Shown piece by piece: positions 144 to 17,974 of a stretch of DNA of 17,974 bases; position 1 is the first letter of the stretch; every line of letters starts with the position of its first letter. Origin of the DNA: Tubiluchus corallicola (lineage: Eukaryota > Animalia > Priapulida); assembly GCA_030141605.1 (NCBI GenBank), contig JAQGDQ010001197.1, positions 38,072 through 56,045 of the forward strand, given 5' to 3'. The position numbers and the translations under genes were made by a program. Below the pieces are notes generated by a model. That model was given only the letters and a program-made list of their open reading frames with translations. It ran no database searches and had not been told where the DNA came from.

Positions 144-586
144 CCGTATTTTCCCGTGTATAAGAGACCCTTGTGTATAAGAGACCCCTTCAATTTTTAG
201 GCAAAAATTCTGGAAAAAAGTTTTTTCAGACGGACATTTTTAGAGGGTAAAGTACAACTTTTTTCAACTCAGTGCGGTACTGAAAACAAAATAAAACCAG
301 TTAATGTGTTGTAGAAAAAGAGTACTGGTATATATTAAAGTGCGTACCTGCAAACCTGTAACAGGAAAGGAGATAATGTCTGTGTCACGATGCTTGTATT
401 GCTTACAACCGCTTCATAGTCGAACGCGACACGCAAAACAGTTGTAGAGCACTTATTTCTTTAAAATCATTAGTGTCACAATTTATGCATCTTATTGAAA
501 AGACTTACTCCCATGTATAAGAGACCCCCTATTTTTAAAGTGAAAATTCTGAGCAAAAAAGGGTCTCTTATACACGGGAAAATACT
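144..586. mobile_element. Non-autonomous Tc1/mariner-superfamily MITE (Tc2/pogo-like CCGTA terminus)
   Basis: Perfect 27-bp inverted repeat GTATTTTCCCGTGTATAAGAGACCCTT at 146-172 and 559-585. Left end reads TA|CCGTA (TA at 142-143); right end is degenerate and followed by TA at 587-588. The motif TGTATAAGAGACCC occurs at 157, 174, 514 and, reversed, at 561. No transposase ORF. Confidence 0.85.
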
Positions 587-1555: not shown

Positions 1556-3853
1556 TTAATCGCCATATCTTACGAGAGATTTAGATGATTTAGATCTTGC
1601 ATTTATGGGTGTAACAGACAAAGTAGACACTGGTGCATTGGCATCAGTTGATCTCGGTTCATTGGTTGACACCGTGGCAATAGCTTCACCTTCATTATTC
1701 CTTTCACGTCTGCGTTGCTTGTACAAGAGGTACCCCGTAATTATGTTACTGATAGTAAAAAGCAATAGCATAATTACAAGTGCTAGTAACTTTTTGTTGA
1801 GTTGTAGTGATCCTTTCGCCCTGATCTGATAGATAACACTTGAACAAACGCCACTGCATCCTGTCACAGGGCAACACTCTGAATCTGCGCCACAATCGCT
1901 GTCCAGCTTGCAAGCAGGTGTAGGACATTCTTGGTTCACAAATGCATCCTTTTCAGGGCACTTGAGCTTTGCAGTGCCTTCTTCACAATTCTCACCACTG
2001 GTTCCAGGCAGGCATTTGCACTCAAACGAGTTTAGCTGATCTACACACGTGCCACCTTTCTTGCATGGTTCTGATGCGCACTCGTTCACATTCATTTCGC
2101 ACTTGTTTCCAGTGTAACCACCTTTGCAGTCGCACGCAATTTCAATGGCATCAAAGGATCCTGTTTTCTTTAAAAAACAAGTTGCTCCATTTTCGCAGGG
2201 ATTCGGCTCGCACACGTTTTCCTCGCAGTTTGTCCCTTGAAACGTTCCAATGCAATCGCAACTGTATTCCTTTTCTTCAAGAATGCAAATGCCGCCATTT
2301 TTGCAAGGATTTGGTTCACACACGTTAACGATCTGCTCGCATTCTTCTCCAGTATATTCTGGCGGGCAGTCACATCGAAAGTAATGGCCGTAGTCCTGAC
2401 ATGTGCCACCATTGCGACACGGGTTTGGTTTGCATGCTTCGAATTTGTTGCAATGAACTCCAGTGCGTAGAGGAGGACAGACACATCTGTAACTATTAGT
2501 CTCGTCGATGCACGTGGCATTTTCAAAGCAGGGATGGGTATCACACTCATTTATGTCAATCGTGCATTGAGGTCCTGTAAAACCAGCCCGACACGAGCAT
2601 GTGTATTTGTTAATCAGGTTAACGCACGTGGCATTATTCTGACACGGGTTGGAGGTACACTCATCGTTGTCTTTTTGACAAAATGTCCCTGTGTATGCAG
2701 GAAGACAACTACATTGGAAATAATTACCATAGTCAATGCAGGTGCCACCATTGTAGCATGGATCCGGTTTACACTTATTAATTGACTTACAATAATCTCC
2801 ATAGTAAGGGTCAACACACTGGCAGAACCAATCGTTAACCAAGTCCACGCATGTGCCGTTATTAAAACAGAAATTGTCCTGACAATCGTTGATGTTAATT
2901 TCACAATTGGTTCCGTTAAAACCACTTTGGCAATCGCAATCATATGTACCTATACCATCTAAGCACGTGCCATTATTGTGGCAAACAACGTTTGCGCAAT
3001 CGTCTATACTTTCTGCGCAGAATTCACCCGTGTATCCTGGTGTGCATATGCAATCGAAGGAATTGTGCCCATCAACGCATTGTGCATTGTTTCGACACGG
3101 AATAGCTAAACACTCGTCTATTCCTACATCGCAGTACATACCAGTAAATCCTGTCGGGCACGAACAACCGAACGAATCACCATAATCTGTGCAAACCTGG
3201 GAATACTGACACGGTCGTGAAAAGCAATCATCAAATTCATTCTCACAGTGGAGTCCGTGGTACTTTGGTGGACAGTTGCATATGGCATAGTTTTCCAAAA
3301 TGCCACTTCCAAGTTTGGAGCACGTGCCAGACTGGCATATCACATTTTGGCATTCTGCAGGAATATACACGTCCTGTATGGTTAACTCGAAGCCTGAATG
3401 GATGGAACGCTTACCATCAGTAATTAAACTGATATTAATAGTGTTGTACTCCATTTCAGGTACCAAATAGCGCAAACCTATGGAGGATTCGTTGCATATC
3501 GGGTCCCAATTGCTGACTGTTCCATCAGCATGCCCCACTACAATCTGAAGGTGGTCCTTCGGGCAATCCAGAAAGACATTTCTAACACCGATAGCAATTG
3601 TCAGGTTAGGGTTAGATGGTTGAATGATGACCATCATTGGGCCTGAAATTAAGGTGCCTTTTGTATTATCATAATCCTCAGGGTAACTGACTATGGAGTA
3701 GTTTGTGTTAGTTCGCAAGTTATAACCCCAACCAGAAGAGTTGCTGGACAATAACTGTATGTCGCTGAAAGCAGTTTTTCTACCACTGGTGATCTGCCAG
3801 CAATGCATGTAGAAGAAGAAAACTTGCAGAAGGAGATCGTAAATAGATGGCAT
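1556..3853 (-). CDS. Type-I membrane protein, 765 aa: signal peptide, degenerate CUB, 12 EGF/cbEGF repeats, WAP four-disulfide core, TM, short cytoplasmic tail (fibropellin/Notch-like EGF array)
   Basis: Uninterrupted ORF from ATG at 3853 (MPSIYDLLLQVFFFYMHCWQITSG). CUB-like region ~3370-3700 (DCPKDHLQI, IC, LITDG..IHSGFEL). Twelve 6-Cys EGF repeats at 1985-3352. Eight-Cys WAP motif CP..C..C..DSDC..ECC..GC..C at 1844-1960. TM LLALVIMLLLFTISNIITGYLLY at 1721-1789, followed by the basic KQRRRER. Confidence 0.93.
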   Translation of the reverse strand: MPSIYDLLLQVFFFYMHCWQITSGRKTAFSDIQLLSSNSSGWGYNLRTNTNYSIVSYPEDYDNTKGTLISGPMMVIIQPSNPNLTIAIGVRNVFLDCPKDHLQIVVGHADGTVSNWDPICNESSIGLRYLVPEMEYNTINISLITDGKRSIHSGFELTIQDVYIPAECQNVICQSGTCSKLGSGILENYAICNCPPKYHGLHCENEFDDCFSRPCQYSQVCTDYGDSFGCSCPTGFTGMYCDVGIDECLAIPCRNNAQCVDGHNSFDCICTPGYTGEFCAESIDDCANVVCHNNGTCLDGIGTYDCDCQSGFNGTNCEININDCQDNFCFNNGTCVDLVNDWFCQCVDPYYGDYCKSINKCKPDPCYNGGTCIDYGNYFQCSCLPAYTGTFCQKDNDECTSNPCQNNATCVNLINKYTCSCRAGFTGPQCTIDINECDTHPCFENATCIDETNSYRCVCPPLRTGVHCNKFEACKPNPCRNGGTCQDYGHYFRCDCPPEYTGEECEQIVNVCEPNPCKNGGICILEEKEYSCDCIGTFQGTNCEENVCEPNPCENGATCFLKKTGSFDAIEIACDCKGGYTGNKCEMNVNECASEPCKKGGTCVDQLNSFECKCLPGTSGENCEEGTAKLKCPEKDAFVNQECPTPACKLDSDCGADSECCPVTGCSGVCSSVIYQIRAKGSLQLNKKLLALVIMLLLFTISNIITGYLLYKQRRRERNNEGEAIATVSTNEPRSTDANAPVSTLSVTPINARSKSSKSLVRYGD

Positions 3854-5356: not shown

Positions 5357-5577
<221 letters not shown>

Positions 5578-6559
5578 TGTGACGCTCAGGCTTATTTTAG
5601 GCCAGGTTATGTAACTAGTTCCTACTATTATAATTCTACCATTTATTATTTTCAATTTTTTATAAAAGAAGTTTAGTTAAACTGTTTAATGATATAATGA
5701 CAGAAGCCAACCTGTTCTGAAATCAGATTTCACCTGTACATTCAATGATACTGTTTATGCATTACTACTATATCATGTGATTGAAGCCACATAGACGAAA
5801 TTTTGGCTGTTCAGTTCGCCCAGGTATTCCGCTTTAAGTTGTCGAGTTAAGCGGACGTTCACATGTCATAAAATGATGGGTTAGTAGTAATAGTGCTTGC
5901 TTGTAGAAAAGCGATCTGTCTACCTGGTTACGACAGAGACGATAGTTGCATTCTAGCGATGATACTTACCTATTGCTGATTATATTTTCCTGACGCTGAT
6001 GATACATCACTTACCAGTTGTCGATGATATCTGCTGCTGATGATACTTACTCGTATTTACCTGACGTTGATGATACTGTCGTTGGTGCGGGATGCTGTGA
6101 TTACAAAATTGGTAATCCTTACCTTGCGACGAGTGCAGGAGCTTGGATGCTACCCCATTTTGGCGTCGTATTAGTGGAGGCGTGTACATCAGGAGTCGTC
6201 AAAGTTTGGAGACGTCGTTCACGTAGTGTAGTCAACCGTTCTATGGTGCACCATTCCTCGATCAAGCCCCTGGTGAGGAGATGACGCGGAATGGGAGCAG
6301 GAGAATGGTCGCTTGATGATGCCAAGACTGCACTGGTGAAAAGCATTACGTTGTTCTTTCTCTTCTTAGCCGGCTTAATCTTTATTATTAACATTTGTCT
6401 TGTAATGTATTTTGGGATATTAATTAAATTGTATTATTTTATTAATTCAGTGGTTTCTTCTCAGTGTTTTCGACTAAGTACTTTATTCTTTACCTAAGGG
6501 TTACACTTAAGTCACGAACCACATATTTACAATAACGGAACTTAGACTACATCGTCACA
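5578..6559 (+). repeat. 5' LTR (982 bp)
   Basis: TG...CA ends with a 7-bp terminal inverted repeat; direct repeat of 11854-12854. Candidate TATAAAAG at 5661 and ATTAAA at 6423. Confidence 0.97.
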
Positions 6560-6562
6560 TTA

Positions 6563-6580
6563 TGGTGTCAGAAGTGGGAT
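6563..6580 (+). promoter_or_regulatory. Primer binding site complementary to the tRNA-Leu 3' end
   Basis: TGGTGTCAGAAGTGGGAT, 3 nt after the LTR, is the reverse complement of ATCCCACTTCTGACACCA, the 3' 18 nt of metazoan tRNA-Leu (CAA/CAG type). Confidence 0.92.
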
Positions 6581-7118
6581 TTTTGACTTTATTTGGTGTA
6601 ACTCGGTAGGAATAAAATTCTTTGTCAGCATTTTGAGAATTTAATGATATTTACTTTCAGGTAATTAGTTACATAGCTAATTTTCTGGGGGAATCTTTGG
6701 GCAAAGGCATATCGAAAGAACATAGCATCTTCCGTTGAGTGACTTTATTGATTACTCAGTTGAATGTGTTTTGTCTATTATTTAAATAGGTTTCCTGCAG
6801 ATTTCGTAAACGCTATAATTCCAGGTGTATGCCGACTTGAATGCCGATTTGTCCTTGATTACACTGTAAACGTTTTAAGTGCTAGTGAAACCGTTATTTC
6901 GTTGCAGGCTAGTCAAAAGTCTTGGCCTAGATTTTGTATATTCCTAGTTTGCTACTTTGTTTGATTTGCACGTACATTACCCTACTATACAGTATTTTTG
7001 TATGTTTGTATGCGTTGAGCCAGTGTGTGTCAGGTGAACGATAGATCTATAAATATTCTGCAAGCATAAAGTTTTTTCACTGTAACTACTATTTGTCCTA
7101 TATTATCCTGTGATTAGA

Positions 7119-10100
7119 ATGTCACGCGTTTACGTGGAGAGTGAATTGCAGCAACTAACTGTACCTGTCTTAAAGCAGATAACTGTTGAACGTAGGCTAA
7201 CTTTACCACAGGGTACAAATAAGGCCGGAATAATTGATATAATCATGAATGCACAGGGTAACCCTGTGACGACAGGTGAACCTAGTGTTAGACCGAAAGA
7301 AGTTGGAGGTGTGTCAAGTACACCGAGTGTGTCTGTTGCGCAGATGAGTGGGCGCAGACGTGTGTCTGATCAACTGTTAGCAACTCCCCCTCCTGCCGAC
7401 CTTACCTTGCATTCTGCTATTAATAGTAAACCTGCGAATGATGAGATGACAGAACGTTCAGTACCCCTTTACAACATTGAAAAGTTAAAGTTAGTAGAGC
7501 GCGAGAAAGAGCGTGAATGGGAACGGGAACGAGAAGAAAGGCGTGAACGTATGCAACGTGAAGAGAGAGAATGGGAACGTGAGCGTGAGGAACGCAGAGA
7601 ACGAATGCAGAAAGAGCAGTATCAGTTTGAGTTGAAGCTTCGTGAGCTGGGTGCCTCATCTTCAGGTCACGTGACACAGGTTCCTTCTCAATCATCTGAT
7701 GGCATACTTACTACAACCGCATCTCGAATACCCCGTGTAAAGTTATCACGTGTTTTTACAGAGGGAACCGATGATCTGCATACTTTCTTACAGTGGTTTG
7801 AAGCAGTAGCCAAAGCTAATGGCCTTGAAGAGAAACACTTTGCTGCATCGCTGGGCCCAGCTTTATCCGGAAAAGCAGCCCAGGCTTTTCAACAAGTACC
7901 ACTTGACAGCATGCAAGATTACAATGTTGTAAAGAAGACTTTGTTAGCTGCCTATGTCCTCTCCAATGACATGTATCTTGAGCGTTTCCGCAAGATTACT
8001 CGGAGACCGGATGAAACATTCCGTCAACTTTTTGTACGGCTTGATCGTGCCCTGCAAGAATGGCTGAAAGCCGAAGAAGCGTCCACCTTTGAGAACGTTT
8101 CTGAACTGTTATGTATTGAGCAGGCCCTTACGTTGATGCCCCGTGAAATGAGCATTTGGGTCAGGCAGCAAGGGCAGAAGACAATGGAAAAGGTGGCAGA
8201 GAAAGCTGATTTGTACATTGCTTCTAATGCATTAGGTACAGCTTCAAAACTTAAACCAATGCAACAACAGCGTGGAAATTCCAGGCCGGCAGCTTTTTCA
8301 AATGGTTTTGGAAAAAAGATGAATAATGACGTCATGAAGAAGATACGCTGTTATACTTGTGGAGAACTTGGACACAAAAGGACCCAGTGCCCGAAACGCC
8401 CTAATTATGGTGAAACTAGTGGCAAGAGTAGAAATCCTAGTCGTCAATTCTTGGCCAAGACAGGAAATACTGGTCACCGATCCAGTCACTCTACCAGTTC
8501 ACCTGCGGCTATGCCTGAGTGTGTGCCTGAGTCTGATGAGTTTAGCTTTAAAGCTAAAATTAATGGTATCTGGATCGATGGTATAAGAGATTCTGGTGCT
8601 AGCGTGAGTTTGATCCAACCACGTTATGTCCGTCCAGAACAGTTTCTACAAAGTGAAAATTGTACCAAAATTTGGTGTGTGCATGGTGATGCTAAAAATA
8701 CACGTATAGCTGTCGTTGAGGTGGAATGTATGCTAGTTAATGGTAGATTGAGAGTGGCAGTGTCTGATAGTCTTCCTGTGCCCTTTTTGCTAGGTAATGA
8801 TTACCGAACTGCTGTGACACCATTTAACATTAAACAGAGTTTTAGTACACCACCTAGGTCAGTTGATTTAGAATGTATCACACCTGAAAATTCAGATACG
8901 TCACATTATTCTGATGAACTTGTGAGTGGAAATACAAAAGTCGCGAAACAAGCTGATAATTCGAAAAAAGCTTTTGCAGTAACCCGATCAAAAGCAAAGC
9001 AGCTACAAGCAGAAGCTAACAGTGAGAAAAAATTACTAAGTAGTTTAAACGCTGATCAAGAAGCGGAAAAAAATATTGCATCTGGCGTAGATACTAAAGC
9101 ACAGCAACAGCAGCTGTTACAGCTTAGTAAAGAACAATTGCAGCAAGAACAGCGCGATGATGTTAGTTTGCGCAATTTACGTGATCACGCAGTTACAGAA
9201 ACAGCAGCTCGAGCCCAAAGAAAGGGTTACTTCATTAAAGATGGGATTTTATATTACCTGACACGTGAAAAGCGCGATGCTGAACCCCGCGAACTTTTGG
9301 TTGTACCCAAGTCTAGACGTTTGGCAGTCTTATCTTTGGCACATGATGCGCACATGGCTGGTCACCTGGGCATACGAAAAACTACCCAACGTGTTTTACA
9401 AGAATGTATCTGGCCTAGAGTTAAACGTTCAGTGATACAATATTGCCGCTCGTGTGTCCCATGTCAGAAAACGGCGAGAATTAAACGTTCTGATAAAGCA
9501 AAATTAAAGCCATTGTCCATACCTTCGATTGCATTTCGAACTATAGCCATGGATATTATCGGGCCTATGAAGAGAACACCCTCGGGGAATAAGTACGCGT
9601 TAATAATAATAGATCATGCTACGAGGTACCCCGATTGCTACCCGCTGCCAAATATTGAAACCACTACTGTTGTTAAAGCTTTACTGCAATACATATGTCG
9701 ACATGGCATCCCGTGTGAGATTTTAACCGACAGAGGTACTCAATTCACATCACAGTTAATCCATGATTTAGAACAGGCCTTGGGTGTAAAGGGAATTTTC
9801 ACTTCCCCATACAACCCACAGGGGAATGGGTTAACTGAGAGATTTAATGGCTCATTAAAATCCTGCATTTTAAAAGTCATGCAAAATGAGAAACATTTAC
9901 CCTGGGATGAAACTATTCCGTTTATTTTATTTGCTTTCCGGGAAGTACCCCAAGAATCCACTGGGTATGCTCCATTTCAGCTAGTTTACGGTTTTCCCGT
10001 GCGTGGGCCTTTGGCTGCCCTAAAAGAACGTTGGGGCTCTGTAGAAGCTCCTAAGTGGGAGGAAATTGATGATTACGTGACTCGCATAATTAACACTGTA

Positions 10101-11252
10101 GAAGAGGCAACTACTGATGCCCATGAAGCTTTGCAAAAAGCTAAAATATCACAGAAAAATTGGTATGATAAAACCACTTCAGAACGCTCGCTTGAAATAG
10201 GGCAAAAAGTTCTTGTTTTAATGCCTGAAGGAAAAAGCAAAATGCAAAAGCGCTATCGTGGCCCCTTTACAGTTGTTGATAAATTGTCTGATTGGACATA
10301 TAAAATACATTTAGAAGGCAAAAGTGCACGCAAACGTGATACAAGAACATATCATATCAACATGTTGAAACCATTTGTTGAAAGCGACGAGCACATGGTT
10401 TTGTTTGCAAAGTGTGAGGAATTTAGTACAACGTCACTAGACAGTGTTTTGTCTGAAGTTGGTAATGGTGATGTGAAGGTGGATGAGCAGGAGGAAAATG
10501 AGTGTTCATTGAAACTTCCTGAATATGCATTCCCGCCTTCTGCCTCACCCACGCAGTCCCTCAATGATGTAGCATATGACTCTCATCTCAATGATGAACA
10601 GATTAGTCAGTTGGCAGCAGTACTTGCAGAATTTTCAGAGATGTTCACTAATCTTCCCGGGTGCACTGAATTAGTCCAACATCGTATTACTCTAACAAAT
10701 CCTACGCCAGTTGTAGGACATGTCGAAACGATGTTTAGTCCTATTGCGGTACCCTTGTATGCACTGCTTGAGAAAAATGCACCTGTACACGTTGACTGGA
10801 ATGAAGAGTGTGAACGCAGCTTTATAGAACTGCGCACTGCACTGAACTCAGACACGGTGCTTCACTCACCTGATTTTTCGCAGAAATTTGTTCTAACAAC
10901 TGATGCTTCATTTAGTGGTATTGGTGGAGTGCTGACACAAGTACAGAGTGAGTTAGGTGAGGTGCCAATTACACATGTGAGCAGAAAGTTAACTACGTGT
11001 GAACGAAATTATAGTGTTGTGGAAATTGAGTTGTTGGCAGTAGTGTATTCTGTAACTAAGTTACGTTACTACTTAGAAGGTCATGAGTTCATAGTACGAA
11101 CTGACCAACGTAGTTTGCTAGCACTTCCACGCATGAAGAGAAATAATCGCCGCCTTTGTACATGGGCGCTTATTTTGCAAGAATTCCACTTTACTGTAGA
11201 GAATATTGCTGGAAAAGATAATATTGTAGCAGATTCTCTTTCACGTCTATGA
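7119..11252 (+). CDS. gag-pol: Gag-Pol polyprotein, 1377 aa: HeH/SAP-like N-terminus, E/R coiled coil, capsid with SCAN-like domain, CCHC knuckle, aspartic protease, integrase, RT remnants, RNase H
   Basis: CYTCGELGHKRTQC at 8349-8390. Protease DSG at 8589-8597. Integrase HHCC at 9342-9464, D (9552), D (9729), 35 residues, E (9837), and GPF at 10260. RT N-terminal PGCTELVQHRI is joined to the thumb motif FSPIAVPL. RNase H has TDAS (D at 10902), EIELLAV, RTDQ and ADSLSR. No YxDD. Confidence 0.96.
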   Translation: MSRVYVESELQQLTVPVLKQITVERRLTLPQGTNKAGIIDIIMNAQGNPVTTGEPSVRPKEVGGVSSTPSVSVAQMSGRRRVSDQLLATPPPADLTLHSAINSKPANDEMTERSVPLYNIEKLKLVEREKEREWEREREERRERMQREEREWEREREERRERMQKEQYQFELKLRELGASSSGHVTQVPSQSSDGILTTTASRIPRVKLSRVFTEGTDDLHTFLQWFEAVAKANGLEEKHFAASLGPALSGKAAQAFQQVPLDSMQDYNVVKKTLLAAYVLSNDMYLERFRKITRRPDETFRQLFVRLDRALQEWLKAEEASTFENVSELLCIEQALTLMPREMSIWVRQQGQKTMEKVAEKADLYIASNALGTASKLKPMQQQRGNSRPAAFSNGFGKKMNNDVMKKIRCYTCGELGHKRTQCPKRPNYGETSGKSRNPSRQFLAKTGNTGHRSSHSTSSPAAMPECVPESDEFSFKAKINGIWIDGIRDSGASVSLIQPRYVRPEQFLQSENCTKIWCVHGDAKNTRIAVVEVECMLVNGRLRVAVSDSLPVPFLLGNDYRTAVTPFNIKQSFSTPPRSVDLECITPENSDTSHYSDELVSGNTKVAKQADNSKKAFAVTRSKAKQLQAEANSEKKLLSSLNADQEAEKNIASGVDTKAQQQQLLQLSKEQLQQEQRDDVSLRNLRDHAVTETAARAQRKGYFIKDGILYYLTREKRDAEPRELLVVPKSRRLAVLSLAHDAHMAGHLGIRKTTQRVLQECIWPRVKRSVIQYCRSCVPCQKTARIKRSDKAKLKPLSIPSIAFRTIAMDIIGPMKRTPSGNKYALIIIDHATRYPDCYPLPNIETTTVVKALLQYICRHGIPCEILTDRGTQFTSQLIHDLEQALGVKGIFTSPYNPQGNGLTERFNGSLKSCILKVMQNEKHLPWDETIPFILFAFREVPQESTGYAPFQLVYGFPVRGPLAALKERWGSVEAPKWEEIDDYVTRIINTVEEATTDAHEALQKAKISQKNWYDKTTSERSLEIGQKVLVLMPEGKSKMQKRYRGPFTVVDKLSDWTYKIHLEGKSARKRDTRTYHINMLKPFVESDEHMVLFAKCEEFSTTSLDSVLSEVGNGDVKVDEQEENECSLKLPEYAFPPSASPTQSLNDVAYDSHLNDEQISQLAAVLAEFSEMFTNLPGCTELVQHRITLTNPTPVVGHVETMFSPIAVPLYALLEKNAPVHVDWNEECERSFIELRTALNSDTVLHSPDFSQKFVLTTDASFSGIGGVLTQVQSELGEVPITHVSRKLTTCERNYSVVEIELLAVVYSVTKLRYYLEGHEFIVRTDQRSLLALPRMKRNNRRLCTWALILQEFHFTVENIAGKDNIVADSLSRL

Positions 11253-11838
11253 ATGGGTAATTCCAACCACTAAAGCCCAAGTTAGGTGATTAAAGATCAC
11301 CTCTGACCAGTTTGAAACATTTTCTTTTACATTATATGAAGCTAATTCATTAGAAATGAATTACAAATAATAAAATTTTGTTGCAAAATTAGTTTAATAT
11401 ATTCGCAATGCCATCTATGAGTGGTAATAGAAAACATGGGCCGTGGTGTGTTGTTGTATTGTATTATTTTAATCTTGTTAGGCTGATAAATAGTAAAAGT
11501 ATTTCTCCTTTGTTTAAGACAAAACAGTGTTTTATTTTTAGTTTATTCATTTATGTTGAAACCAAGATTTGAACCTTGCGTTGTATGCTTAAGAGTAAAT
11601 AAATACTGTCTTACCTAATATGTAATTATTTCATGAGCGAAGGAATTCACAAAGATTTGTTGATGAAGACTGTGATTGAGTATTGCATTTTTTGTCATTG
11701 ACATTAGTTATTTTTGTTCTATTATTGTGATGAATATGTATCATGATTTTTTGTGTAACTAGTTTATTGCCCTGACCTATTGTGTTAAAAGTCTTGATAT
11801 CACATTTTAGTAAAAAAATTTGATGGATCAAGCTTTTG

Positions 11839-11853
11839 TAACGGAGGATGCTA
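11839..11853 (+). promoter_or_regulatory. Weak polypurine tract candidate
   Basis: AACGGAGGA lies just before the 3' LTR. It is short and imperfect, and is called mainly on position. Confidence 0.4.
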
Positions 11854-12852
11854 TGTGACGCTCAGGCTTATTTTAGGCCAGGTTATGTAACTAGTTCCTA
11901 CTGTTATAATTCCACCATTAATTATTGTCACTCTTTATAAAAGAAGTTTAGTTAAACTGTTTAATGATATAAGGCTAGAAGCCAACTTGTTCTGAAATCA
12001 GATTTCACCTGTACATTCAATGATACTGTTTATGCATTACTACTATATCATGTGACTGAAGCCACGTAGACGAAATTTTGGCTGTTCAGTTCGCCCAGGT
12101 ATTCCGCTTTAAGTTGGCGAGTTAAGCGGACGTTCTCATGTCATGAAATGATGGTTTAGTAGTAATAGTGCTTGCTTGTAGAAAAGCGATCTGTCTACCT
12201 GGTTACGACAGAGACGATAGTTGCATTCTAGCGATGATACTTACCTATTGCTGATTATATTTTCCTGACGCTGATGATACATCACTTACCAGTTGTCGAT
12301 GATATCTGCTGCTGATGATACTTACTCGTATTTACCTGACGTTGATGATACTGTCGTTGGTGCGGGATGCTGTGATTACAAAATTGGTAATCCTTACCTT
12401 GCGACGAGTGCAGGAGCTTGGATGCTACCCCATTTTGGCGTCGTATTAGTGGAGGCGTGTACATCAGGAGTCGTCAAAGTTTGGAGACGTCGTTCACGTA
12501 ATCAGATCCATGAAGAGGTCGTGTAGTCAACCGTTCTATGGTGCACCATTCCTCGATCAAGCCCCTGGTGAGGAGATGACGCGGAATGGGAGCAGGAGAA
12601 TGGTCGCTTGATGATGCCAAGACTGCACTGGTGAAAAGCATTACGTTGTTCTTTCTCTTCTTAGCCGGCTTAATCTTTATTATTAACATTTGTCTTGTAA
12701 TGTATTTTGGGATATTAATTAAATTGTATTATTTTATTAATTCAGTGGTTTCTTCTCAGTGTTTTCGACTAAGTACTTTATTCTTTACCTAAGGGTTACA
12801 CTTAAGTCACGAACCACATATTTACAATAACGGAACTTAGACTACATCGTCA

Positions 12853-12854
<2 letters not shown>
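11854..12854 (+). repeat. 3' LTR (1001 bp)
   Basis: Matches the 5' LTR; carries an extra 20 nt ATCAGATCCATGAAGAGGTC at 12501-12520. Confidence 0.97.

Positions 12855-12937
<83 letters not shown>
12855..12937. repeat. (TTA)~27 microsatellite, right flank of the LTR element
   Basis: Read directly from the sequence. Confidence 0.99.
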
Positions 12938-13680
12938 GGCCTTGAATAAGATTACAACGTTACTGTGAAATAATACTAAGGGTAATGTGGGGCAACAACT
13001 CCTTTAATTTTTTGCTACTGTCCGGTCATTATTTTGTTGTGTAGACTTGCAATTTTCCCAAAAATGTTATTTATGTACTGTTAATGAACAAGATATTATC
13101 TTTGCTAACTACTTTGTTCCGATTTAGTGTTAAAAATTGTTAAATTTACTGAAACGGACTTTTCGCCACTAATACAATTTTGTATAATGTAAGACATGTA
13201 TGTCAAAAATGTGACATACAATTCCAATTAAGTAGAAGACGAAATTCACTTTTTGTTTTATTTCTCCTCCTGCAACCGGTTAAGACAATTTTTTATTCTG
13301 ATATAATAAGCATCAATAGCAATTTCATTAACTTGAACGACAGCAAAAAGCTAAAATTCGTGATGGGGGGGGGGCGATATAACCAAAATAGTCGCTGACT
13401 ACATTTTTAAGCGTTTAAAAAAGGAGTAAATAGTACTAAAATGTAAACATTGATAACATTATTTATTATTTTTTCATCATCCGCAACTGTATCTACACTA
13501 AAATTATATAAATATGTTATTTGTTATGTGTTTATTTTAGACTTTGGAGCTATAACGTAATCGCTCTGTTTTGTACATTTGTATATTCTTGTTGCTTCGT
13601 TGTATGTTCTGTATGTCAGTGTATCATAATGTAAATGCCAATAATAAATTTTTCCATAAAATGCCATACATTTTTTCTAA

Positions 13681-16750: not shown

Positions 16751-17527
16751 TACTTTTGTGTTGTAGAATTCTCGCTTAATAAACTAGTTTAATTTGACGA
16801 CGTGTTTTCTGGTTTTCTCTACGAGCCTTCCGAGAGAAACAAAACACAACAGTTATATAGGCCTTTAAGTCACATATTGTGAAGATGGGAAGGTAGTTGG
16901 AAAAACCTGTTAATATGCACCCTGAAATGAGCCTATGATCGATTATATTGGTAAATATATTGTCAAAAAGTGTAGCCGATAGGTCAGTAATTCTTTTTGA
17001 ACGGGTAATGAGAAGAAAATTTGCGAGTATGCTGTTTAGAAACAGTTTTATACATTTATGGATAGAAAAGTTTAATAAGTTGAGATTGTAGTTACCAAGA
17101 AGAAAAATATGTTTAGGATGTCGGCACTGATTATAGAATAGAATATAGAACAGAATTTATTTTTACATACAAATTATATACACAATGTTTCTATAATGAA
17201 CCAATGGCATGTTAGTATTAATTAACATTTAAAATGGAACAGAATACCTTAAAATTAAATAAAACTAAAAAACGACCAAGTACTAAAACAGATAAGACAT
17301 AAAATACTTTGTAAAATTAATAACGGGCTGAAAGCAAAAGTTAGATAAGAGTACTTTTGTGTTGTAGAATTCTCGCTTAATAAATAGTTTAATAATTTGA
17401 CGACGTGTTTTCTGGTTTTCTCTACGAGCCTCAAGAGAAACAAAACACAACAGTTATATAGGCCTTTAAGTCACATATTGTAGAAGATGGGAAGGTAGTT
17501 GGAAAAACCTGTTAATATGCACCCTGA
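16751..17527. repeat. ~175-bp direct duplication (16751-16925 and 17352-17527)
   Basis: Near-identical copies TACTTTTGTGTTGTAGAATTCTCGC...TAATATGCACCCTGA, differing by a few small indels. Confidence 0.95.
16777..17132 (-). pseudogene. CR1/L2-group LINE APE endonuclease, C-terminal half (inactive)
   Basis: Stop-free frame KHIFLLGNYNLNLL...RITDLSATLFDNIFTN...SGCILTGFSNYLPIF. GDFN is changed to GNYN (17085-17096), DNIFTN is at 16947-16964, and SDH is changed to SNY (SNYLPIF at 16881-16901). Confidence 0.8.
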
Positions 17528-17974
17528 TCGGAGCAAAAACATCATTGTAGGTGTAACTTATCCACATCCTGGGATCAATCCAACTAATTTCATCGATACA
17601 TTTTCTAAATCTTTTGCATATGTATTATAAACGTTTTTACACACGTTTATTGACTGAAGTTTTAGAAACTGATGTTTGTTTTATTTCTTATTTTACGAAG
17701 TCCTTTAAAATTTGTCTAATTTAGTACTTGTGCCTAATTTTGGTTAGTTTTTTGTTTTTATTAGGATTAATTTTGCAAGGAACTTTAACCTGTTTAATTA
17801 GTACTTTTATCTAACTTTTGCTTTCAGTCCGCATCTAATTTTACAAAGTATTTTGTGATTTATCTGTTTTAGTACTTTAGTCGGTTTTTAGTTTTTTTAA
17901 TTTTAAGGTATTCTGTTCTATTTTATATTTTATAATAATAACATGCCATTGGTTCATTATAGAAACATTGTGTA
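17179..17974. repeat. ~175-bp inverted repeat (17179-17354 and 17801-17974, running to the window end); retroposon 3'UTR-like
   Basis: TACACAATGTTTCTATAATGAACCAATGGCATGTTA...AAGCAAAAGTTAGATAAGAGTAC is the reverse complement of the window end, roughly 85-90% identical by eye. The left arm continues on the minus strand into AATAAA plus a (TTCTA)n tail at ~17134-17161. Confidence 0.92.
17535..17610 (+). pseudogene. CR1/L2-group LINE endonuclease fragment (IIVGxxYRHP motif)
   Basis: Translates KNIIVGVTYPHPGINPTNFIDTFSK, resembling the KNIIVGVIYRHP..F..F motif that precedes GDFN in these endonucleases. The match is short. Confidence 0.6.

What the first reader, a model, noticed from the sequence alone, without database searches (positions are those of the whole stretch)
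10701..10745. Clean in-frame loss of the whole RT catalytic core in an otherwise intact element: candidate RT-less parasite lineage
Seen: the RT N-terminal lead-in (PGCTELVQHRITLTNPTPV) joins via VGHVETM to the thumb (FSPIAVPL). SPW, DYR.LN, MPFGL, YxDD and YLGH are all absent; I estimate ~240-260 codons missing from typical Gypsy RT. Yet the 1377-codon frame has no stop, and the protease DSG, integrase HHCC/DDE, RNase H acidic residues, PBS, LTR ends and TSD remain. VGH may be a remnant of LGLVG[YH]YR, implying two nearby deletions. Inference: either a recent single-copy deletion that happened to keep frame, or a semi-autonomous subfamily that builds its own particle and integrase but borrows RT (possibly a dominant-negative interfering element). 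The chimeric LTR favours co-packaging with a helper. The junction contains CCAG and GTAG|G, so removal by splicing before retrotransposition is also testable.
Basis: partly seen in the sequence, partly recalled or inferred. Interest (0 to 1): 0.8.

Follow-up and report, generated by a model that had tools for sequence, protein, structure and literature searches.

The report
Retrotransposon subfamily missing its reverse transcriptase
This jumping gene lost only its copying enzyme in one clean in-frame cut, and the same cut form sits beside complete relatives in two other samples, so it is likely a small parasitic subfamily that borrows the enzyme from them, a new variant of a known kind of genomic freeloader.

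Summary
The deletion is real. About 244 codons of RT core are replaced by 16 nt (10713-10728), and the 1377-codon frame stays open. The exact junction is an 88-nt contig with no differences in 4 of 4 runs laid (2 samples, 2 studies), none holding the window's own copy. All four also hold RT-bearing siblings. In one sample the junction has about 4-7 times the depth of single-locus-like contigs and makes up about a third of the family. This supports a trans-mobilised RT-less subfamily; flanks were not seen. Splicing is not supported (no GT..AG in register). Selection on the retained frame is not shown (7 synonymous, 12 replacement differences; p=0.42), so 'semi-autonomous builder' and 'dominant-negative' remain untested. 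Closest known: mouse IAP 1Δ1 and wheat Sabrina_SA/WHAM/Quinta; the wheat elements lack both RT and integrase. The scan has noted other deleted gypsy copies on other DNA, but those also lost integrase. Verdict: new variant of a known kind, interest 0.42.

The parts
5359..5577 (.). (TTG)n/(ATT)n microsatellite, left flank; last 5 nt TTATT = possible TSD
5578..6559 (+). 5' LTR, 982 nt, TGTGAC..GTCACA; differs from the 3' LTR by 16 substitutions and a 1-nt indel, all in the first 303 nt, plus one 20-nt indel at offset 648
6563..6580 (+). Primer binding site, 18 nt beginning TGG, 3 nt after the LTR; tRNA-Leu type by recall, not tested
   Evidence: sequence
7119..11252 (+). Single stop-free polyprotein ORF, 1377 aa: gag(SCAN, CCHC)-PR-IN-[RT remnant]-RNase H
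7968..8396 (+). Gag: SCAN-like capsid domain (aa 284-364) and CCHC zinc knuckle (aa 410-426)
8550..8801 (+). Aspartic protease (aa 478-561, DSG at 491; Pfam hit below the curated cut-off)
9303..10376 (+). Integrase: HHCC, D-D(35)-E, SH3-like C-terminus (aa 729-1086), upstream of RT
10656..10712 (+). RT N-terminal lead-in up to the left joint (10712|10713, between codons)
10713..10728 (+). 16-nt island (reads VGHVE) belonging to neither flank; likely a retained scrap of the RT primer-grip region, or else filler; replaces about 733 nt (inferred)
10729..11252 (+). C-terminal thumb remnant and complete RNase H (D-E-D-D present)
11840..11853 (+). Weak purine-rich tract before the 3' LTR (candidate PPT, atypical)
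   Evidence: sequence
11854..12854 (+). 3' LTR, 1001 nt
12855..12938 (.). (TTA)n microsatellite, right flank; first 5 nt TTATT

Best explanation
This is a copy of a Gmr1-like LTR retrotransposon that lacks the RT polymerase core but keeps an open gag-protease-integrase-RNase H frame, and it likely belongs to a small non-autonomous subfamily copied by the RT of its intact siblings. Shown: the in-frame loss; the same junction in two other samples; RT-bearing siblings in the same runs; LTRs, PBS and catalytic residues. Inferred: (1) the junction arose once, likely by two RT template jumps (or break repair with a templated scrap) that left the 16-nt island; (2) the deleted RNA is transcribed from the LTR and packaged into particles that also hold full-length polyprotein; (3) helper RT copies it, and integrase from either source inserts it; (4) co-packaging lets the junction recombine onto different backbones, which would explain the several upstream haplotypes and the chimeric LTR. 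The open frame may help in cis, as reported for IAP 1Δ1, but no selection on it is detectable, so youth and chance are a sufficient account.
For:: junction contig 10683-10770, 88 nt, 0 differences, in 4 of 4 runs (depth X1 1201.7, X2 27.6, X3 11, X4 67.2). RT-side contigs at the right joint: X1 2300.8, X3 39.8, X4 87.7, X2 about 50 (by subtraction of bin depths). The deleted form is 34, 35, 22 and 43% of the two. Against hand-picked single-locus-like contigs (X1: 12 values, median 179, range 97-233) the junction is 6.7x in X1, 3.8x in X2 and 6.0x in X4, three libraries of one sample. The window's copy is not in these runs: word share 0.53-0.59, about 2% divergence on long contigs. So three sources carry one junction. 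The listed RT-side contigs of X1, X3 and X4 each differ from the junction contig at one linked site just right of the joint. At 10676 the window's letter has depth only 355.7 in X1, against 1201.7 for the junction, so junction copies sit on at least two upstream haplotypes. In gag 7578-7801 the X1 contig (depth 3040) differs from the window at 5 sites. LTR mismatches cluster in the first 303 nt, p about 7e-9. Precedent: IAP 1Δ1 (PMC6466679, PMC7411935; passages).
Against: No flank of any other deleted copy was seen, so separate insertions are inferred from depth and haplotypes. The tool states that contig depth is no copy number. No single-copy host gene was laid, and the baseline was chosen by hand from truncated tables. 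Against the highest baseline value the ratio falls to 5.2 (X1), 2.0 (X2) and 2.1 (X4). In X3, the second sample (kind and organism unrecorded), the junction is only 0.7x baseline, i.e. about one locus. The junction contig has 30 letters left of the left joint, one short of the tool's 31-letter bridging rule (46 and 42 letters at the right joint). A filter may hide records, so a window-type haplotype missing from a run is not proof of absence. The LTR chimerism could be gene conversion after insertion. The PPT is atypical.
Confidence: 0.62

Rival explanations
1. One deletion at one genomic copy, later multiplied by tandem or segmental duplication or seen at inflated depth (pooled animals, library bias); not mobile on its own.
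For: No flanks seen. X3 shows about single-locus depth. The family does suffer ordinary one-off deletions: a second one (10366 to 11190, 6-nt filler) lies at single-locus-like depth in X1, X2 and X4. No selection signal.
Against: Three libraries of sample S1 agree on several-fold depth while the other deletion stays at baseline. The junction is identical across sources whose backbones differ by about 2%. Junction copies have at least two upstream haplotypes. The window copy's LTRs have no substitution over about 680 nt and share alleles that the runs lack at 6343, 6480 and 6481, which points to an insertion after this sub-lineage diverged.
Confidence: 0.18
2. A selected semi-autonomous or defective-interfering partner: it supplies Gag, protease, integrase and perhaps RNase H to mixed particles and dilutes RT, restraining the family while riding on it.
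For: The frame is open over 1377 codons at about 2% divergence; a neutral copy would stay stop-free with probability 0.07 (70 changes) to 0.02 (100 changes). All catalytic residues are present. The deleted form is about a third of the family. In Ty3 RT, polymerase and RNase H activities come from different subunits (PMC5371799, passages).
Against: Listed ORF differences: 7 synonymous of 19, neutral expectation 0.32, p=0.42. Of the 9 sites at which every X1, X3 and X4 contig differs from the window, 7 are replacements. The sample is small (40 of 426 differences were listed, 19 in the ORF). Some of the divergence may predate the deletion, when the frame was constrained anyway. The remnant lacks fingers and palm, so acting as an RT subunit is doubtful (inference).
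Confidence: 0.15
3. The junction is a spliced RNA that was retrotransposed.
For: In mantis shrimp a Gmr1-like family is annotated with an RT-skipping isoform whose 3' joint is near the same thumb position: RT-bearing and RT-less isoforms at the same LOC, 202 aa skipped between a V and a Q codon, compatible with GT..AG. A GT lies 3 nt left of the left joint in the window.
Against: In the siblings the removed stretch neither begins with GT nor ends with AG, nor fits CT..AC. The nearest AG lies 9-10 nt inside the retained right flank. Using the upstream GT would need V two residues before GH, seen in 0 of 62 relatives. A 16-nt island would need two introns.
Confidence: 0.04
4. Assembly error in the window.
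For: None found; no single listed contig spans the whole element.
Against: The same 88 nt, with 0 differences, were assembled in 4 of 4 runs from 2 studies.
Confidence: 0.01

Closest known systems
Gmr1 clade of Ty3/gypsy LTR retrotransposons (PMC8220671, PMC4131045; passages)
   Same: Integrase upstream of RT; SCAN domain in gag; single ORF; integrase groups with IN-first elements.
   Different: RT core absent. My searches for Gmr1 with non-autonomous or SCAN (listings, plus passages of 2 papers) showed no RT-less Gmr1 subfamily.
Mouse IAP 1Δ1 (PMC6466679, PMC7411935; passages; the primary paper PMC2413153 was not held)
   Same: Internal deletion that leaves an open fusion ORF; non-autonomous; needs proteins in trans from full-length copies; spreads as a subfamily.
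   Different: 1Δ1 loses 1.9 kb across gag and pol and needs both Gag and Pol in trans. Here gag, protease, integrase and RNase H are whole and only about 0.73 kb of RT is lost. The cis benefit is shown for 1Δ1 and untested here.
Wheat RLG_Sabrina_SA, RLG_WHAM, RLG_Quinta; TR-GAG (PMC9744471, PMC11302176, PMC13570524; passages)
   Same: 'Semi-autonomous' gypsy derivatives with an intact gag(-protease) ORF, cross-mobilised by an autonomous partner.
   Different: They lack both RT and integrase, number hundreds to thousands of copies and are millions of years old. This one keeps integrase and RNase H, has an estimated handful of copies and is about 98% identical to its helper.
RT-skipping isoforms of a Gmr1-like family in Oratosquilla oratoria (RefSeq models, e.g. 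XP_076039591.1 / XP_076039592.1)
   Same: Same protein outcome: SCAN-gag, PR, IN, RT lead-in joined in frame to thumb and RNase H.
   Different: At 4 loci seen with both forms (3 of the 8 LOCs of the P0151 cluster, plus LOC143020322) it is an annotated splice isoform of an RT-bearing copy, not a genomic deletion. DNA was not inspected.

Membership tests
Gmr1-like Ty3/gypsy | Integrase upstream of RT/RNase H | tested here: met
   definition from PMC8220671 passage
Gmr1-like Ty3/gypsy | SCAN domain in gag (over half of frog Gmr elements) | tested here: met
   PF02023 E=1.6e-13; PMC4131045 passage
Gmr1-like Ty3/gypsy | Integrase phylogeny with IN-first elements | tested here: met
   FastTree, 92 rows: window plus all 36 IN-first rows form a clade (0.87 IN alone; 1.0 IN+RH). 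No named Gmr1 reference was included.
Gmr1-like Ty3/gypsy | RNase H phylogeny with IN-first elements | tested here: inconclusive
   The RH tree placed the window among IN-last rows, but an AU test did not reject grouping with IN-first rows, p=0.73
Gmr1-like Ty3/gypsy | RT phylogeny | not testable with these tools
   RT core is absent from the window and the siblings' RT interior was not retrieved
Autonomous LTR retrotransposon | RT polymerase domain with YxDD | tested here: not met
Non-autonomous trans-mobilised LTR subfamily | Cis signals kept (LTR ends, PBS, PPT) | tested here: met
   PPT weak
Non-autonomous trans-mobilised LTR subfamily | Same deletion in several copies | tested here: met
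   4 of 4 runs, 2 samples; 4-7x baseline depth in one sample; at least 2 haplotypes
Non-autonomous trans-mobilised LTR subfamily | Independent insertion sites, each with its own TSD | not testable with these tools
   No genome held; contigs break inside the repeat
Non-autonomous trans-mobilised LTR subfamily | Autonomous partner in the same genomes | tested here: met
   RT-side loose ends at both joints in 4 of 4 runs, including a 781-nt contig in X3; full coding integrity of the partner not seen
Semi-autonomous (Sabrina_SA / Quinta / TR-GAG type) | Lacks both RT and integrase | tested here: not met
   Integrase is intact
Semi-autonomous (Sabrina_SA / Quinta / TR-GAG type) | Retained ORF conserved by selection | tested here: inconclusive
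   7 synonymous/12 replacement, p=0.42, n=19
Spliced-then-retroposed derivative | GT..AG at the ends of the removed stretch | tested here: not met

The most novel reading that the evidence does not exclude
A young defective-interfering or cooperative partner of a Gmr1 retrotransposon that has shed only the polymerase core, is kept in frame by selection, builds mixed particles with its own capsid, protease, integrase and RNase H, and sets the RT dose of the family; the RT-skipping isoform in mantis shrimp would be the same product reached by splicing, i.e. a recurrent RT-less polyprotein in this clade.
Probability: 0.15. Interest if true: 0.72.

Novelty: new variant of a known kind. Interest (0 to 1): 0.42.

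Why it matters
Known coding non-autonomous LTR elements mostly keep gag and drop both RT and integrase. Here only the polymerase core is gone, the helper is about 98% identical and sits in the same genomes, and a single 16-nt tag marks every deleted copy. That makes it a clean natural case of a parasite lineage near its birth. Copy number, flanks, expression and dN/dS of the two forms can be read from existing kinds of data, which tests whether an open frame is a selected cis advantage (as for IAP 1Δ1) or a lag before decay. RT-based annotation would miss such elements.

Tried and rejected
No genome is held for the window, so loci could not be counted directly. An exact 20-nt scan of metagenome contigs gave 1 hit, L001, an unrelated prokaryote-type contig with no BLASTN match to the window: chance. 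Viral contigs: 1 pattern hit, no confirmed relative. Protein searches found no close relative (best 51% for the RH part, 44% for IN-RH), and the window protein is not in the collection. No RNA holder was listed, which is no evidence on expression. Other RT-less Gmr1-like proteins as genomic parallels: among the 150 best representatives plus the window, 148 IN..RH units were scored: 125 with RT, 13 partial, 10 without (one is the window), and 7 proteins had no such unit; the query favours such hits. I looked at 6 of them. P0151 proved to be a splice isoform, P0233 a fusion of two elements, and P0099, P0140, P0176 and P0199 are singletons with different joints, unchecked at DNA level. None counts as support. 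An apparent RNase H/integrase tree conflict did not survive an AU test. The island has no exact source longer than 8 nt elsewhere in the element. Its primer-grip origin is only suggestive: null 467 of 3000 for the 5-mer, 61 of 2000 for the best 4- or 5-mer, a test chosen afterwards. No structure prediction or complex job was run. PMC2413153 was not held; no supplements were read, and family tables in the plant papers' supplements might list RT-only losses.

Full report
Observation. The window holds an LTR element at 5578-12854, inserted in an (ATT)n microsatellite, with one stop-free frame of 1377 codons. Pfam gives SCAN (E 1.6e-13), a zinc knuckle, a weak protease hit, integrase (H2C2, rve, C-terminal SH3) and RNase H, and no RVT_1 at E<=1. 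The PDB search matches only the thumb end and RNase H of Ty3 and related RTs. Protease, integrase (D-D35-E) and RNase H catalytic residues are in place. Integrase lies upstream of the RT remnant, the hallmark of Gmr1 elements (PMC8220671, passages). SCAN is common in them (PMC4131045, passages). Integrase and IN+RH trees group the window with all 36 IN-first rows used (36 of 113 usable IN-first rows, with all 55 IN-last rows). An RNase H-only conflict was not significant.

The junction. Laying four public runs on the element and then on the junction alone placed the joints. Siblings leave the window's sequence after 10712 and rejoin it at 10729, in 4 of 4 runs, with loose ends that continue as RT. 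The 16 nt between (VGHVE) belong to neither side. In 62 intact relatives (of 152 screened) the removed stretch is 240-248 residues. If the 781-nt RT-side contig of X3 abuts the left contigs by the usual 30-nt overlap, 733 nt were removed. That fits both the codon phase and the relatives; it is an inference. Net loss would be 239 codons. The island scores best exactly at the xGHx primer-grip column, but chance is not excluded (p 0.16, or 0.03 with a test chosen afterwards). The removed stretch does not begin GT or end AG, so splicing is not supported.

Is it one copy or a lineage? An 88-nt contig (10683-10770) with no difference from the window occurs in all four runs, from 2 samples and 2 studies. 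It has 30 letters left of the left joint, one short of the tool's bridging rule, and 46/42 at the right joint. These runs do not hold the window's own copy: they share 53-59% of its words and long contigs differ by about 2% (125 of 6094 nt in 17 listed pieces). Depths are 1201.7, 27.6, 11 and 67.2, against 2300.8, about 50, 39.8 and 87.7 for the RT-bearing side, so the deleted form is 22-43% of the two. As a single-locus yardstick I took the low-depth variant contigs listed (tables 5, 5c, 8): 12 values in X1 (median 179, 11 of them 157-233), 5 in X2, 5 in X3, 8 in X4. I left out duplicates, one LTR variant at 273/62/129 and contigs that looked multi-copy. The junction is 6.7x, 3.8x and 6.0x that yardstick in the three libraries of sample S1 (2.0-5.2x against the highest value), but 0.7x in X3. 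A second, unrelated deletion (10366 to 11190) stays at yardstick depth in the same libraries, a useful internal contrast. The tool warns that depth is no copy number, and no host gene was laid, so this is an estimate. Independent of the yardstick, the window's letter at 10676 has depth 355.7 in X1 while the junction has 1201.7, so junction copies lie on more than one upstream haplotype. The window's LTRs have no substitution over their last 680 nt or so, but differ at 16 sites in the first 303 nt (p about 7e-9). That fits recombination between co-packaged genomes or later gene conversion; I cannot separate the two. No flank of another deleted copy was seen.

Is the retained frame used? Of the 40 differences listed (386 more not shown), 19 fall in the ORF: 7 synonymous and 12 replacement, against a neutral expectation of 0.32 synonymous (p=0.42). 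Of the 9 sites where every X1, X3 and X4 contig differs from the window, 7 are replacements. Against this, a neutral copy with 70-100 changes would be stop-free only 2-7% of the time, though part of the divergence may predate the deletion. Selection is therefore neither shown nor excluded. No RNA holder was listed.

Mechanism. Most likely (0.62) the junction arose once, by two RT template jumps or by repair with a templated scrap. The deleted RNA has since been packaged with full-length polyprotein from siblings, copied by their RT and integrated, recombining with them on the way. Shown: the deletion, its recurrence, the siblings, the cis signals and the mixed haplotypes. Inferred: transcription, co-packaging, trans-copying and separate insertions. 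With integrase upstream of RT, one internal loss removes RT and spares integrase, so the architecture needs no special selection. Rivals: one locus multiplied by duplication or depth bias (0.18); a selected cooperative or interfering partner (0.15); splicing (0.04); assembly error (0.01).

Comparison. It works like IAP 1Δ1: an internal deletion, an open fusion frame, and mobilisation in trans (PMC6466679, PMC7411935; passages). It also resembles the wheat semi-autonomous families, which however lack both RT and integrase (PMC9744471, PMC11302176; passages). A sugar beet survey lists 15 families with partly decayed pol remnants (PMC13570524; passages). Nine full-text searches (listings, with passages read in 9 papers, no supplements) showed no subfamily with an RT-only in-frame loss and intact integrase and RNase H. 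The library lacks most subscription journals and Repbase-style annotation, so this is weak evidence of novelty. A search for parallels turned up 11 RT-less models at 8 LOCs in Oratosquilla oratoria with one shared joint. RT-bearing isoforms exist at 3 of those 8 LOCs and at one further LOC, so these are annotated splice forms, not a genomic parallel. The scan's earlier notes hold nothing by sequence and, by words, deleted gypsy copies in other genomes that also lost integrase (unchecked).

Verdict. Observation confirmed; lineage reading likely; splicing and the proposed motif origin not supported; functional use of the retained proteins open. New variant of a known kind, interest 0.42; the boldest reading (probability 0.15) would merit about 0.72.

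Noticed in passing
window 1556-3850 (-): Intronless-looking ORF of about 765 aa from the first ATG with 11 EGF repeats, an N-terminal hydrophobic stretch, a CUB-like and a WAP-like cysteine pattern (by eye) and a C-terminal hydrophobic segment; starts 1.7 kb from the 5' LTR, divergently.
   Followed up: partly
window 10366-11190 (runs X1, X2, X4): A second deletion derivative of the family removes all of RT and most of RNase H, with a 6-nt filler, at single-locus-like depth.
   Followed up: partly
P0151 cluster, P0254, P0280 (Oratosquilla oratoria RefSeq models): A Gmr1-like family annotated with in-frame isoforms that skip the RT core (202 aa), and others that skip integrase too using the same acceptor: possible regulated splicing of a single-ORF retrotransposon.
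   Followed up: partly
window 5578-6559 and 11854-12854, run X3: Summed contig depth jumps about 10-35-fold near LTR offset 250-300 in X3 only, close to where the LTR mismatches end (offset 303). X3's kind is unrecorded and contigs cannot show an RNA start, so this is unexplained.
   Followed up: no
window 146-585: Perfect 27-nt terminal inverted repeats around 386 nt: MITE-like.
   Followed up: no
window 16751-17974: Nested long inverted repeats (17130-17974) and a roughly 600-nt-spaced direct duplication (16751-16932 / 17352-17534): likely a palindromic MITE or fold-back element.
   Followed up: no
window 5359-5577 and 12855-12938: The element sits inside an (ATT)n microsatellite; loose ends at LTR termini in X1 are AT-rich but varied, so strict microsatellite targeting is not evident.
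   Followed up: no
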